A stretch of DNA of 5,018 nucleotides, taken from a virus (taxonomy: Duplodnaviria > Heunggongvirae > Uroviricota > Caudoviricetes). Each line of letters starts with the position of its first letter. Positions within the stretch are counted from its first letter, which is position 1. The stretch lies in the IMG/VR virus record IMGVR_UViG_2634166492_000001. One strand, given 5' to 3'. A model generated the notes under the pieces. That model saw only the letters and a program-made list of their open reading frames with translations, had not been told where the DNA came from and searched no databases. Shown one piece after another: positions 1 to 5,018 of this stretch. A program made the translations under genes and the position numbers.

Positions 1-37
1 AAGATAGGGTCCGCAGGATGCTCAGGGCCGTGTCTCT

Positions 38-1214
<1,177 letters not shown>

Positions 1215-1250
1215 TGGAGCACCTGTGTTGTTCTGAGGTGAGCATATCAC

Positions 1251-1286
1251 CTCTGTTCAGGTGGCCAAATTCAGTGTGCCACTTCA
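1251..1286. repeat. IS911-like left terminal inverted repeat (IRL); inner boundary approximate
   Basis: Minus strand reads TGAAGTGGCACACTGAATTTGGCCACC from 1286 inward, matching the IRR at the 8 terminal bases and at the TGGCCACC block. Confidence 0.75.
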
Positions 1287-1376
1287 TTTCTTGCCTCAAA
1301 TGGCAGTACGTTAACTATTCAGTCAAATGGTGCGGCGTTTACTGCCACAACCATCAAGATAATCGCGGAGCAGTGA
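1287..1376 (+). pseudogene. 3'-terminal 29 codons of an ORF interrupted by the IS (possibly the tail-needle gp26-position gene by P22 synteny)
   Basis: Frame is open from the first base after the IS end (FLASNGSTLTIQSNGAAFTATTIKIIAEQ) to TGA at 1374..1376, which overlaps the next gene's ATG (TGATG), a typical coupled junction. Identity of the gene is inferred from position only. Confidence 0.4.
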
Positions 1377-1831
1377 TGATTCAGTTCAAACCAACGCGAA
1401 ACATCGACCTGATCGAAGCAGTAGGAAATCACACTGACATTATCGCCGGGAGCAACAACGGCGATGGATACGACTACAAGCCTGAATGCCGTTACTTTGA
1501 GGTTAACGTGCACGGGCAGTTCGGCGGAATTGTTTACTATCAGGAGATTCAGCCGCTAACCTTTGATTGCCACGCCATGTACCTGCCAGAGATTCGTGGA
1601 TTCAGCAAGGAAATCGGGCTGGCGTTCTGGCGATACATTCTGACTAACACCACCGTTCAGTGCGTCACATCGTTCGCTGCGCGCAAATTCCGCCACGGTC
1701 AGATGTACTGCGCAATGATTGGCCTTAAGCGTGTAGGAACCATCAAGAAATACTTCAAAGGCGTGGATGACGTGACGTTTTACAGCGCCACACGCGAAGA
1801 ACTAATCGACTTCCTGAATCACGGGAGATAG
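1376..1831 (+). CDS. P22 gp14-position protein (151 aa), function unknown
   Basis: ATG at 1376 with GGAG 5 nt upstream; stop TAG at 1829..1831. It sits immediately upstream of the gp7-like gene, as gene 14 does in P22. The track ORF start at 1214 lies inside the IS and is rejected. No motif recognised by eye. Confidence 0.8.
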   Translation: MIQFKPTRNIDLIEAVGNHTDIIAGSNNGDGYDYKPECRYFEVNVHGQFGGIVYYQEIQPLTFDCHAMYLPEIRGFSKEIGLAFWRYILTNTTVQCVTSFAARKFRHGQMYCAMIGLKRVGTIKKYFKGVDDVTFYSATREELIDFLNHGR

Positions 1832-1833
1832 CC

Positions 1834-2526
1834 ATGTTATATGCATTTAAGCTGGGCAGAAAACTGCGCGGCGAGGAACCTTATTGCCCTGAAAAAGGCG
1901 GGAAAGGTGGCAGCTCTGATAAAAGCGCAAAGTATGCAGCAGAAGCTCAGAAGTATGCCGCAGACCTGCAAAATCAGCAGTGGCAGACGATCATGAAAAA
2001 CCTTGCTCCGTTCACGCCTCTTGCGGAGCAGTATGTTAACCAGCTTCAGAACCTTTCCAGTTTAGAAGGTCAGGGGCAGGCACTTAATCAGTATTACAAC
2101 TCTCAGCAGTATAAAGACCTTGCAGGTCAGGCTCGTTACCAGAGTCTTGCTGCTGCGGAGGCGACGGGTGGACTTGGTTCGACAGCCACAAGCAATCAAC
2201 TGGCTACGATCGCGCCGACACTCGGTCAGTCTTGGTTATCAAACCAGATGAGCAATTACAACAATCTGGCAAACGTTGGGCTTGGTGCGCTGCAAGGTCA
2301 GGCAAACGCCGGGCAGACATACGCCAACAACATGAGCAGCATTGCACAGCAAAGCGCAGCTCTTGCCGCTGCTAATGCCAATAAACCATCAAGTCTTCAG
2401 ACAGCAATTAGTGGCGGAACGTCTGGTGCGATTGCCGGTGCAGGTCTTGCCAGCCTTTTGGGAATATCAACACCTTGGGGCGCTGGCATTGGTGCTGGTA
2501 TCGGATTGCTTGGCTCGTTGTTTTAA
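1834..2526 (+). CDS. DNA-ejection (E) protein, P22 gp7-like (230 aa)
   Basis: ATG at 1834 with GGGAGA upstream, 2 bp after the previous stop. Q/N/A-rich protein with a Gly-Ala-rich hydrophobic C-terminus; size matches what I recall for P22 gp7 (about 229 aa) and position matches gene 7. Confidence 0.85.
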   Translation: MLYAFKLGRKLRGEEPYCPEKGGKGGSSDKSAKYAAEAQKYAADLQNQQWQTIMKNLAPFTPLAEQYVNQLQNLSSLEGQGQALNQYYNSQQYKDLAGQARYQSLAAAEATGGLGSTATSNQLATIAPTLGQSWLSNQMSNYNNLANVGLGALQGQANAGQTYANNMSSIAQQSAALAAANANKPSSLQTAISGGTSGAIAGAGLASLLGISTPWGAGIGAGIGLLGSLF

Positions 2527-2535
2527 GGGGTAATC

Positions 2536-3867
2536 ATGGCTACTTGGCAAGGATCAAATGGCGGATTGTTAGCTGGTATCGGCGGCGTCAACTCAAACGC
2601 TCCGAACGTAAATGACATCGGCAATACGCTTCAGCTTATCAGGCAGAACAATGATATTGAGCGTTCAGGCGCTAACAATGTTGGGCTGACTGCTTTGCAA
2701 GGCCTTTCAGGTATTGCGGGGGTGTTTCAGCAGGAAAAGCAGGCTCAGCGGCAGAAAGAATTTCAGCAGGCGTACGCTAATGCTTATGCGTCTGGTGATC
2801 GCGGTGCTTTGCGTCAGTTGGCTACTCAATATCCAGACCAGATTGAATCCGTTCGTAAAGGCATGGGATTCATTGATGAAGACCAGCGTAATTCTATCGG
2901 CACCTTAGCGGCTGGCGCACGCCTTGCGTCATCGTCTCCAGAAGCAATGCAATCATGGCTGCAAAACAACGCCGGTGAGTTAGCTCGTGTTGGCGTTAAT
3001 CCTCAGGACGTCGCTCAGATGTACCAACAGAACCCGCGGCAGTTCGGCGAATTTGTCGATCACCTGGGGATGAACAGTCTCGGACCCGAAAAATACTTTG
3101 ACCTACAGGATAAAATGCAGGGTCGCCAGGTTACCATGCGCGGTCAGGACCTGGATTCGCAAACCGCCGCTCGGAATCAGGCAATCACAATGCGCGGGCA
3201 AGATATCCAGGCGAATTTAGGTCAGCAGCGCATTAATCTGGACGCAGAAACAAACCGCATTAACAACGAAAATAAGCGCCTTGACCGGATGCTATCAGCA
3301 GAAACTAACGACCTGAAGCGCCAGGAAATACAGAGCCGCATAGCAGCCAACAACCAGCAGTTGCAGCAGAAGCAGCAAGCGCTAAATGATGGCTACAAAG
3401 ACGGCATCAACACCCTCACAACCAGCATGTTCACTCTGAACGATATCGTTAGTTCTCCTTCACTTAAGAGCATTACAGGCTTACGTGGAGTAATCCCCAA
3501 CGTTCCAGGCTCACAGGCTGCAGACACTCAGGCACGACTTGATACCTTTAAATCCCAAGCATACCTGACAGCGGTTCAGGCCATGCGAGGCATGGGCGCA
3601 CTTTCTGATGCCGAGGGCAAAAAGCTCGACCAGGCTGTTGGTTCGCTGCAGAACTCGCAGAGCGAGGAGTCCTTTCGTCGCAACGCTGGCGTCATCCTGA
3701 ACACGCTCAACCAGAAGCGTAATGAGGCGGTTGGTAAGTACGTTCAGCAAAACGGTATCAAGCGAGTGGAAGCGCCTCAGGCTTCTATAGATTACCTGAA
3801 GCAGCACCCCGAGCTGTCAATCGACTTCATTAATCGCTACGGATATCTTCCATCTTTGGGGCAGTAA
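2536..3867 (+). CDS. DNA-ejection (E) protein, P22 gp20-like (443 aa)
   Basis: ATG at 2536 with AAGGGG upstream; stop TAA at 3865..3867. Q-rich, predicted coiled-coil protein in the gene 20 position; P22 gp20 is about 471 aa from memory. Confidence 0.8.
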   Translation: MATWQGSNGGLLAGIGGVNSNAPNVNDIGNTLQLIRQNNDIERSGANNVGLTALQGLSGIAGVFQQEKQAQRQKEFQQAYANAYASGDRGALRQLATQYPDQIESVRKGMGFIDEDQRNSIGTLAAGARLASSSPEAMQSWLQNNAGELARVGVNPQDVAQMYQQNPRQFGEFVDHLGMNSLGPEKYFDLQDKMQGRQVTMRGQDLDSQTAARNQAITMRGQDIQANLGQQRINLDAETNRINNENKRLDRMLSAETNDLKRQEIQSRIAANNQQLQQKQQALNDGYKDGINTLTTSMFTLNDIVSSPSLKSITGLRGVIPNVPGSQAADTQARLDTFKSQAYLTAVQAMRGMGALSDAEGKKLDQAVGSLQNSQSEESFRRNAGVILNTLNQKRNEAVGKYVQQNGIKRVEAPQASIDYLKQHPELSIDFINRYGYLPSLGQ

Positions 3868-4473
3868 ATGGCTAATTACCGTGATTTGTTAGAGCAGGCT
3901 GGCGCACGTTACGGTGTGCCAGAAGGGTTGATGACTGCACTGGGTGCCAAGGAGTCTTCTTACAACCCTGCCGCAGTAAGCTCCGCCGGGGCTGTAGGAT
4001 TGACTCAGGTCATGCCTGGGACATGGCGTGATATGGGTTATACCGATGAGCAAATGCAAAACCCCGAATATCAGGCTGACGCTGGCGCGCGCTATCTGGC
4101 AAAGATGTACCAGCAGTTTGGTAACTGGCGTGACGCTCTTCAGGCTTATCACGACGGTCCCGGCAACGTTATGAAGGCAAAGCGTGGTGAATATACGCCA
4201 GGACCTGAAGGCCGCGGTTACGTTGATGATCGCTTTGCTCAATGGGCTGGTGACCCGGTGACAGACTCAACAGTCGAACAGCGCGCCACCTCTGCAAAGG
4301 TACATCCTCAGCAAGACCCTAACAACCCGTTTGCACAACTGGAAGTACAGTCATCCGAACAAGTATCGGCATCAGGTGTGCAGTCAGACCCAAATAATCC
4401 ATTTGCTCAGATTGAGCAGCAGGCAGCCAGTCAGCATGCCTTCGCAACTCTTCACTATGGCGCGTTCTTTTAA
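3868..4473 (+). CDS. SLT-domain lytic transglycosylase (201 aa) in the third ejection-protein (gp16) slot
   Basis: ATG at 3868 directly abuts the previous stop (TAAATG). Family-1 lytic transglycosylase motifs are readable: [24 protein letters not shown] (E-S ... GLxQ, catalytic Glu at 3952..3954) and [10 protein letters not shown] (AYNxG-like). C-terminal third is low complexity with two DPNNPFAQ repeats. Confidence 0.85.
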
Positions 4474-5018
4474 AGCCGTAGCCAATGGCAAAATTTATAT
4501 CGGAAAAATTGACACTGACCCGGTAAATCCTGAAAACCAGATTCAGGTTTATGTAGAGAATGAAGACGGATCTCACGTCCCTGTTTCTCAGCCAATTGTT
4601 ATCAATGCTGCCGGATATCCTGTGTACAACGGGCAGATTGCCAAATTTGTAACTGAGCAAGGCCATTCAATGGCTGTATATGATGCGTATGGTTCGCAGC
4701 AGTTCTATTTTCAGAATGTGCTGAAGTACGATCCTGATCAGTTAAAGCAGTTACTTCAATCAGATGAAGGAGCTGCTCACATTGGCACTAATAGCGGAAA
4801 AAATCTCCAAGAGGAGCTATTTGCAATAAAAAATGAAATATATCAAGACCCGCTTACATCGTGGCCTTTCGGTGGAACATTAAAAATAAAGCAAGGGGTG
4901 TACGATATCGCGTCACCACTCGTTCTTGATTACGGCAACTATGACGCTAAATTTATTGGTTCGACAGGAGTCCGTGCTCATTATTCCGGAGAAAATATGG
5001 CAGAAACGATATTTAACT
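4436..5018 (+). CDS. Tailspike protein, 5' part (P22 gp9-type head-binding domain then divergent receptor-binding module); continues beyond window
   Basis: Translation ...[48 protein letters not shown]...[27 protein letters not shown] aligns almost residue for residue with recalled P22 gp9 residues about 10-113. No stop before 5018. Start is ambiguous (ATG 4436, ATG 4457 or TTG 4412); the frame is open back to 4262. Confidence 0.9.

What the first reader, a model, noticed from the sequence alone, without database searches (positions are those of the whole stretch)
1287..1376. IS inserted inside the 3' end of a phage gene, 29 codons before a coupled TGATG junction
The first base after the IS end continues an open frame for 29 codons to a TGA that overlaps the gp14-position ATG. 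That is the signature of the C-terminus of an upstream late gene (tail-needle gp26 position by P22 order) cut by the IS. The IS transposase runs opposite to the phage late operon, so late transcription entering from upstream would cross 1.25 kb of antisense IS before reaching the ejection genes.
Basis: partly seen in the sequence, partly recalled or inferred. Interest (0 to 1): 0.5.

Follow-up and report, generated by a model that had tools for sequence, protein, structure and literature searches.

The report
IS911-truncated tail-needle gene stub in prophage remnant
The 90 bases are the leftover last 29 codons of a phage tail-needle gene sitting against an IS911 insertion sequence in a decaying P22-like prophage remnant of Shigella flexneri, which is an ordinary product of IS-driven genome decay and not a live phage gene split by a simple insertion.

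Summary
IS911 occupies 38..1286 with its transposase on the minus strand. Bases 1287..1373 are 29 sense codons, and the TGA at 1374-1376 overlaps the ATG of the gp14-like gene. The peptide FLASNGSTLTIQSNGAAFTATTIKIIAEQ matches the C-terminus of the 282-aa Sf6-type tail-needle knob protein (P22 gp26 position): 28/29 to database proteins, and DNA identical to intact prophages.

The other IS flank (1..37) is not the needle gene, and there is no 3-bp target duplication (TCT versus TTT). The 37-mer belongs to an unrelated integrase/KilA-N island that splits ynfE in some E. coli. In complete S. flexneri genomes the same IS|stub junction has tRNA-Thr plus a start-less integrase on the other side. In a third arrangement it has a gene that precedes the terminase. 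No late operon lies upstream, so "late transcription crossing the IS" does not apply.

The stub has no start codon and no promoter-like site. The downstream genes are also decaying: a 2.6-kb deletion fuses gp16 to the tailspike.

The window is a whole 5-kb draft contig, so its left junction across a multicopy IS may be an assembly artefact.

One oddity remains. The same junction occurs with IS911 in both orientations on an identical flank.

The parts
1..37 (.). Left flank of the IS. It is a fragment of an unrelated integrase/KilA-N chromosomal island, not the tail-needle gene.
   Evidence: The 37-mer has no match in E. coli complete genomes, phages or plasmids, and its central 25-mer has none in GTDB representative genomes or IMG/VR. 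The full 37-mer occurs exactly in metagenome contigs L019 and L020, inside a 101-aa minus-strand ORF next to an anti-repressor-like gene. L020 is 91-94% identical to a ~6.8-kb island that splits ynfE in E. coli.
38..1286 (-). IS911 (IS3 family), 1249 bp. IRR is at 38-64 and IRL at 1260-1286. orfA is 912-1214, orfB is 46-885, and the A6G frameshift motif is at 957-963. The fused OrfAB frame is open for 389 aa.
1287..1376 (+). 3' stub of the Sf6-type tail-needle knob gene (P22 gp26 position): the last 29 codons plus TGA.
   Evidence: In other assemblies the stub is called as a 27/28-aa product hitting PF16532 Phage_tail_NK. No ATG, GTG or TTG lies between the in-frame TGA at 1239-1241 and the stop.
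1367..1370 (+). GGAG Shine-Dalgarno sequence for the gp14-like gene, retained inside the stub 5 nt before the ATG.
   Evidence: Read directly from the sequence.
1376..1831 (+). gp14-like gene (DUF2824), 151 aa.
   Evidence: PF11039. The exact protein is named as a Shigella flexneri / Shigella DUF2824 protein and is seen on 637 contigs.
1834..2526 (+). gp7-like ejection protein, 230 aa.
   Evidence: PF25688 P22_gp7.
2536..3867 (+). gp20-like ejection protein, 443 aa.
   Evidence: PF16928 Inj_translocase.
3868..4473 (+). Truncated gp16-like ejection protein. The SLT lytic transglycosylase N-terminus (~190 codons) is fused out of frame to sequence from the tailspike start.
   Evidence: PF01464. 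The full-length relative is 797 aa with SLT plus Phage_P22_gp16 domains. The deletion junction is shown.
4430..4436 (+). Junction of a 2600-bp deletion (GTCAGCA microhomology). The deletion removes the rest of gp16, mnt, and the first 11 tailspike codons.
   Evidence: The same fusion protein occurs in five independent Logan assemblies.
4436..5018 (+). Tailspike gene with the P22-type head-binding domain. It starts at the original Met12 and runs off the contig end.
   Evidence: PF09008 on L014-L016 homologues.

Best explanation
Bases 1287-1376 are a dead 3' stub: the last 29 of 282 codons of an Sf6-type tail-needle knob gene. The stub sits at the IRL end of an IS911 copy in a degraded P22-like (Lederbergvirus, Sf101/Sf6-related) prophage remnant of Shigella flexneri. 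Inferred history: IS911 once inserted at the TTT that now begins the stub. IS911-mediated events (recombination with other IS911 copies or adjacent deletion) then replaced or removed everything on the other side. The IS is therefore now a deletion/rearrangement end point rather than a simple insertion. The stub has no start codon and no upstream promoter. It survives only because it lies between the IS end and the gp14-like gene, whose own Shine-Dalgarno sequence it carries. The downstream ejection and tailspike genes are themselves decaying. Shown: the identity of the stub and of the IS, the absence of the needle gene and of a target duplication on the left, the genomic context in complete genomes, and the further deletion. 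Inferred: the order of events and the mechanism of loss.
For: Stub identity. IS911 identity and integrity. Left flank is not the needle gene and there is no TSD. The same right junction has three different left flanks. In L003 and L008 the flank is a start-less HK446-like integrase next to tRNA-Thr(CGT) and proA. In L005, L007 and L010 it is a DUF2560 gene fragment that follows lysis genes. In the window it is the ynfE-island fragment. The right flank is identical or 1-2 SNPs apart among all junction-bearing loci, but differs at 9 or more sites from intact prophages. Short-read contigs L011, L012, L030 and L031 start at window positions 1289-1292, meaning they break at this IS boundary. The host is S. 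flexneri. The junction is absent from 5,426 complete E. coli genomes. No start codon occurs in the stub frame and no sigma-70-like site occurs in 1..1900. Further decay is shown by the 2.6-kb gp16-tailspike deletion and by an in-frame stop in gp16 of L008. The literature describes S. flexneri prophages as mostly IS-riddled cryptic remnants (PMC6424224).
Against: The window is an entire 5018-bp contig of a fragmented draft assembly. Continuity of 1..37 with the stub across a 1.25-kb multicopy IS is therefore not independently verified. I could not inspect the rest of the source genome, so the 5' 253 codons of the needle gene might survive elsewhere as the reciprocal product of an inversion rather than being deleted. 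The promoter scan is a simple consensus search and cannot exclude weak or read-through transcription of gp14-gp20.
Confidence: 0.85

Rival explanations
1. One reading: a simple IS911 insertion into the 3' end of the needle gene of an otherwise intact, inducible P22-like prophage, so that late transcripts must cross the antisense IS.
For: The right junction falls inside the needle gene and the IS is intact and antisense. Related S. flexneri prophages with an intact 282-aa needle gene exist.
Against: The left flank is unrelated DNA and there is no TSD. In complete genomes with this junction the left side is integrase, tRNA-Thr and proA. The downstream genes are damaged.
Confidence: 0.04
2. The left junction (1..37 | IS) is an assembly artefact. 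The assembler walked through a collapsed multicopy IS911 and attached about one k-mer of the flank of a different IS911 copy, the one sitting in the ynfE island. The true left neighbour would then be the integrase, as in L003 and L008.
For: The window is a whole 5-kb draft contig ending 37 bp beyond a repeat. Other assemblies break exactly at this IS boundary. The window's IS is identical to the L003 copy except at position 142, close to the left end, where it carries the base seen in other copies.
Against: There is no direct evidence. A genuine IS911 x IS911 recombination would produce the same sequence. The 37-mer is real DNA found in other samples.
Confidence: 0.4
3. The stub is retained for function, for example as a translated leader that couples translation into gp14 or as a small peptide gene.
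For: The TGATG overlap and the GGAG are preserved, and the stub is conserved among many S. flexneri genomes.
Against: No ATG, GTG or TTG occurs in frame after the TGA at 1239-1241, and no promoter-like site was found. The conservation is explained by recent common descent, because the whole flank is identical or 1-2 SNPs apart.
Confidence: 0.03

Closest known systems
IS911 (IS3 family), first described in Shigella dysenteriae; copy-out/paste-in transposition
   Same: The element is 1249 bp. Its terminal repeats begin TGAAGTGG. OrfA is 100 aa, there is an A6G -1 frameshift site, and the OrfAB frame with the rve domain is open. It is 99% identical to annotated IS911 copies.
   Different: This copy lacks the flanking 3-bp direct repeat, so its two flanks did not originate from one insertion event. 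It is 1 bp shorter than the SfII copy. The fused frame is 389 aa, against the published 382 aa.
Sf6 gene 9 / tail-needle knob protein (Pfam PF16532 Phage_tail_NK), the P22 gp26-position gene
   Same: The C-terminal 29 residues are 27-28/29 identical. The position immediately upstream of the gp14 gene, with overlapping stop and start, is the same.
   Different: Only 29 of 282 codons remain. The gp10-binding N-terminus, the coiled coil and most of the knob are absent. The stop is TGA instead of TAA.
IS-riddled cryptic serotype-converting prophages of S. flexneri, such as the Sf6 remnant of strain SFL1520 and the SfII remnants of strains 301 and 2457T
   Same: This is a P22-like late-gene remnant located next to tRNA-Thr (anticodon CGT, taken from prior knowledge to be thrW) and proA. 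It is bounded by IS elements, and in sister genomes it is followed by tailspike and gtr genes (PMC6424224, PMC3636060).
   Different: I did not find this particular IS911|needle-stub junction described in the papers I could read. The lineage-specific 2.6-kb gp16-tailspike deletion is an additional decay step.

Membership tests
IS911 (IS3 family) | Size of ~1250 bp with imperfect terminal inverted repeats beginning 5'-TG | tested here: met
   1249 bp. The arms at 38-64 and 1260-1286 are 27 nt long and 74% complementary, both beginning TGAAGTGG.
IS911 (IS3 family) | orfA (100 aa, HTH) and overlapping orfB (DDE/rve) joined by a -1 frameshift at A AAA AAG | tested here: met
   orfA is 100 aa with PF01527 and orfB carries PF00665 rve. 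The A6G motif is at 957-963 and the fused frame is open for 389 aa. The architecture matches PMC2909936.
IS911 (IS3 family) | High nucleotide identity to named IS911 copies | tested here: met
   99.2% over the full length to copies annotated 'IS3-like element IS911 family transposase'.
IS911 (IS3 family) | 3-bp (occasionally 4-bp) direct target duplication flanking a simple insertion (from prior knowledge of IS911) | tested here: not met
   TCT on the left versus TTT on the right. This does not argue against the element being IS911. It shows that the flanks come from different events.
Sf6-type tail-needle knob gene (PF16532) | C-terminal knob sequence ending ...TATTIKIIAEQ | tested here: met
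   28/29 identity to P0035-P0038. Stub products in other assemblies carry a precomputed PF16532 hit.
Sf6-type tail-needle knob gene (PF16532) | Complete ~282-aa ORF with N-terminal domain, coiled coil and knob | tested here: not met
   Only 29 codons are present, with no start codon. The left flank is unrelated.
Sf6-type tail-needle knob gene (PF16532) | Synteny: immediately upstream of the gp14 gene with overlapping stop and start | tested here: met
   Sf6 and phiKp_30 gene tables and the window sequence.
Functional P22-like (Lederbergvirus) prophage | Contiguous late operon (terminase, portal, scaffold, coat, gp4, gp10, gp26) upstream of gp14 | tested here: not met
   Absent from the window. 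In L003 and L008 the IS is preceded by integrase, tRNA-Thr and proA. Intact relatives L004, L006 and L009 show the expected order.
Functional P22-like (Lederbergvirus) prophage | Intact ejection protein gp16 and tailspike | tested here: not met
   A 2600-bp deletion fuses gp16 codon ~190 to tailspike codon 12.

The most novel reading that the evidence does not exclude
The identical IS911|TTTCTTGCC junction exists with the IS in both orientations on a sequence-identical flank. IRL abuts the stub in the window, L003 and L008, and IRR abuts it in L005, L007 and L010. Homologous recombination or adjacent deletion cannot change which IS end touches a flank. The reversed form therefore needs a second transposition event at exactly the same phosphodiester bond. 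One reading is a natural footprint of IS911 'targeted insertion' at the tip of a resident IS911 end, the pathway known from Chandler-lab experiments. Loss of the resident copy and of the head genes by adjacent deletion would then have followed.
Probability: 0.3. Interest if true: 0.35.

Novelty: already known. Interest (0 to 1): 0.15.

Why it matters
The practical value is for annotation. The 29 codons should be labelled as a tail-needle pseudogene fragment, and the locus as a non-inducible remnant rather than an IS-interrupted live prophage. The fixed IS911|stub junction and the nested 2.6-kb deletion could serve as lineage markers in S. flexneri. The case also shows that a draft contig running through a multicopy IS cannot be trusted on the far side. 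The only mechanistically interesting aspect is the occurrence of the same junction with both IS orientations, which could be a natural example of end-targeted IS911 insertion.

Tried and rejected
1. I looked for the left 37-mer in Sf6 and phiKp_30 upstream of the stub and found no match, even allowing 3 mismatches.

2. I searched for the 37-mer in complete E. coli genomes, phages and plasmids, and for its central 25-mer in GTDB representative genomes and IMG/VR. Nothing significant was found. Only the metagenome scan found it.

3. I considered that the 37-mer might be an adaptor, a hairpin artefact or a copy of something else in the window. A short-word BLAST against the window and the loci gave only 7-9-nt chance hits. 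A passing resemblance to the Nextera/454 adaptor ends, recalled from memory, was only 8 nt and in the wrong context, so I rejected it.

4. I tested whether the IS911(-) copy at the start of L005, L007 and L010 carries the same flank. BLAST had extended the match 5 nt, but the flank there is CTTCTGCTT, so this was a coincidence.

5. I compared the L003 integrase with the P22-like integrase of L006 and found them unrelated. It is instead 99% identical to the HK446/HK542 integrases.

6. A literature search for a description of this exact junction found only general statements on cryptic S. flexneri prophages and IS911 elsewhere. The two primary IS911 targeted-insertion papers (PMC126149, PMC2546779) are not held.

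7. The homologue search with the full-length needle protein was meant to reveal N-terminal truncated forms next to IS911. The listed hits were all full length, because truncated forms are hidden inside 90% clusters.

Full report
**The observation**

The window carries a complete IS at 38..1286. Its 27-nt terminal inverted repeats lie at 38-64 and 1260-1286, and both begin TGAAGTGG. It is 99.7% identical to the IS in phage SfII. It is 99.2% identical to E. coli copies that PGAP labels 'IS3-like element IS911 family transposase'.

On the minus strand it has a 100-aa orfA (912-1214, PF01527) and an rve-domain orfB (46-885). It has an A AAA AAG motif at 957-963, and a -1 fused frame that stays open for 389 aa. 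This matches the published IS911 architecture (PMC2909936).

Bases 1287-1373 translate to FLASNGSTLTIQSNGAAFTATTIKIIAEQ, followed by TGA at 1374-1376. That stop shares its A with the ATG of the next gene.

**What the 29 codons are**

Nucleotide homology to phages Sf6 and phiKp_30 starts exactly at base 1287. In both phages it corresponds to the last 90 nt of a 282-aa gene, which is followed, with an overlapping stop and start, by the gp14 homologue. In Sf6 this is gene 9 ('similar to P22 gene 26'). In phiKp_30 it is annotated 'tail needle knob protein'.

Full-length knob proteins from E. coli and S. flexneri end ...FFSVDKDG|FLATNGSTLTIQSNGAAFTATTIKIIAEQ, which is 28/29 identical to the window peptide. 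The intact prophages L004 and L009 are identical to the window over the first 44 nt of the stub that were printed.

**Why this is not a simple insertion**

In intact genes the sequence before the TTT is ...GATAAAGACGGC. In the window the sequence before the IS is ...GGGCCGTGTCTCT. The 3 bp on the two sides of the IS differ (TCT versus TTT). IS911 normally leaves a 3-bp duplication (prior knowledge).

The 37-mer has no match in 5,426 complete E. coli genomes, the phage collection or PLSDB plasmids. Its central 25-mer has none in GTDB representative genomes or IMG/VR. The full 37-mer is found exactly in two metagenome contigs. There it lies inside a 101-aa ORF beside an anti-repressor-like gene. 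That DNA is 91-94% identical to a ~6.8-kb island with a site-specific integrase and a KilA-N protein, which splits ynfE in some E. coli. The left flank is therefore real DNA, but it comes from a different mobile element.

**Context from other genomes**

The exact gp14 protein is named as a Shigella / S. flexneri protein and occurs on hundreds of contigs.

- In the complete genome CP054892.1 (S. flexneri FDAARGOS_713, serotype 3a) and in L008, the window matches at 99.9% from the first IS base through position 4440.
- To the left of the IS in those genomes lie proA, tRNA-Thr(CGT), and an integrase ORF whose first 26 residues are IS-encoded. The rest of that ORF is 99% identical to HK446/HK542 integrases. 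Between that integrase and the IS none of the early, lysis or head genes, and none of the first 253 codons of the needle gene, is present.
- In L005, L007 (S. flexneri 3b SFL1520, CP032513.1) and L010, the same stub is preceded by IS911 and then a DUF2560 gene fragment that follows the lysis genes.

Three different left flanks therefore share one right junction. Across all junction-bearing loci the 1240-bp right flank is identical or differs by 1-2 SNPs, whereas intact prophages differ at 9 or more sites. This indicates a single ancestral junction followed by different IS911-associated rearrangements.

Several short-read contigs begin at window positions 1289-1292, meaning assemblers break at this IS boundary. 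No complete E. coli genome carries the junction. Related S. flexneri prophages, such as the one in strain 8401 (CP000266.1), retain an intact 282-aa needle gene but are 1.2% diverged.

**Function**

The stub frame is closed by a TGA inside the IS (1239-1241). It contains no ATG, GTG or TTG before its own stop, so it cannot be translated from a canonical start and the original translational coupling into gp14 is lost. gp14 keeps its own GGAG five bases upstream of the ATG. A consensus scan finds no sigma-70-like promoter on either strand in 1..1900.

The IS is the boundary of the remnant.

**Further decay**

Relative to L008 and L011, the window lacks 2600 bp between gp16 codon ~190 and tailspike codon 12. 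The junction lies in a 7-nt microhomology, GTCAGCA, at 4430-4436. The result is the 201-aa SLT-only ORF (3868-4473) and a tailspike ORF that begins at the original Met12. The same 201-aa fusion protein is present in five independent Logan assemblies, so the deletion is real and lineage-specific. In L008 the full-length gp16 frame carries an in-frame stop.

**Caveat on the window itself**

The window is the whole of contig AMWM01000449.1 (5018 bp) from a fragmented draft assembly. Continuity across a multicopy 1.25-kb IS in such an assembly is unreliable. The only difference between this IS and the L003 copy is at position 142, near the left end. The island|IS911 junction may therefore be a true IS911 x IS911 recombinant or an assembly chimera. 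Either way, it is not the needle gene.

**An unexplained detail**

In the window, L003 and L008, the IRL end abuts the stub. In L005, L007 and L010, the IRR end abuts exactly the same nucleotide. That second IS is a different IS911 variant, with 10 SNPs clustered at the equivalent of 916-1041, yet the flank is sequence-identical.

Recombination between IS copies and adjacent deletion both preserve which IS end touches a given flank. A second transposition at precisely this bond is therefore required. [quoted passage not shown] That mechanism would fit, but a twice-hit hot spot is not excluded.

**Verdict**

This is a correct observation of an ordinary object: an IS911-bounded pseudogene stub in a cryptic P22-like prophage remnant of S. 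flexneri. It fits the known picture of IS-driven prophage decay in this species (PMC6424224). Interest is low.

Noticed in passing
window 1260-1290; L005/L007/L010 9885-9920; L003/L008 9885-9920: The identical IS911|TTTCTTGCC junction occurs with IS911 in both orientations. IRL abuts the stub in the window, L003 and L008, and IRR abuts it in L005, L007 and L010. The flank is sequence-identical. The reversed IS is a different IS911 variant with 10 SNPs clustered at the equivalent of window 916-1041. Homologous recombination cannot explain this. It may reflect end-targeted IS911 insertion or a hot spot.
   Followed up: partly
window 4430-4473 (compare L008 13061-15661): A 2600-bp deletion at a 7-nt microhomology (GTCAGCA) removes the C-terminal ~600 codons of an SLT-type gp16, mnt, and the first 11 tailspike codons. 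It leaves a 201-aa SLT-only ORF overlapping a start-less tailspike. The same fusion protein is present in five independent Logan assemblies.
   Followed up: yes
window 1-37; L020 2693-2998 (- strand); L021: The contig's left end is a fragment of a small ORF from a ~6.8-kb island with a 541-aa site-specific integrase, a KilA-N/Rha-like protein and hypothetical proteins. In some E. coli this island splits ynfE. The exact 37-mer is absent from all complete E. coli genomes searched. What the island is (satellite or other) was not determined.
   Followed up: partly
L003/L008 7542-8741: In complete S. flexneri genomes the IS911 copy abuts an HK446/HK542-type integrase next to tRNA-Thr(CGT) and proA. 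The called integrase ORF takes its first 26 residues from IS sequence. A paper on oac1b prophage remnants also reports an HK022-like integrase adjacent to IS911 in serotype 1b strains (PMC3630932), so this integrase|IS911 junction may recur in other arrangements.
   Followed up: partly
window 3868-4440; L023 5333-7726: The gp16-position ejection protein of this phage lineage carries an N-terminal SLT lytic transglycosylase domain (797 aa in L023). The Sf6-type gp16 (665 aa) has no SLT hit recorded. In L008 the gene has an in-frame stop.
   Followed up: no
L011 1-88, L012 1-85, L030/L031 1-88: Several draft assemblies start contigs 2-5 nt inside the stub. Their annotation calls the 27-28-aa stub as a protein with a Phage_tail_NK Pfam hit. 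This is a pseudogene fragment entering protein databases as a 'gene'.
   Followed up: no
window 38-1286: This IS911 copy is 1249 bp, 1 bp shorter than the SfII copy. Its fused OrfAB frame is 389 aa, against the 382 aa quoted for IS911. All S. flexneri copies examined share this length.
   Followed up: no
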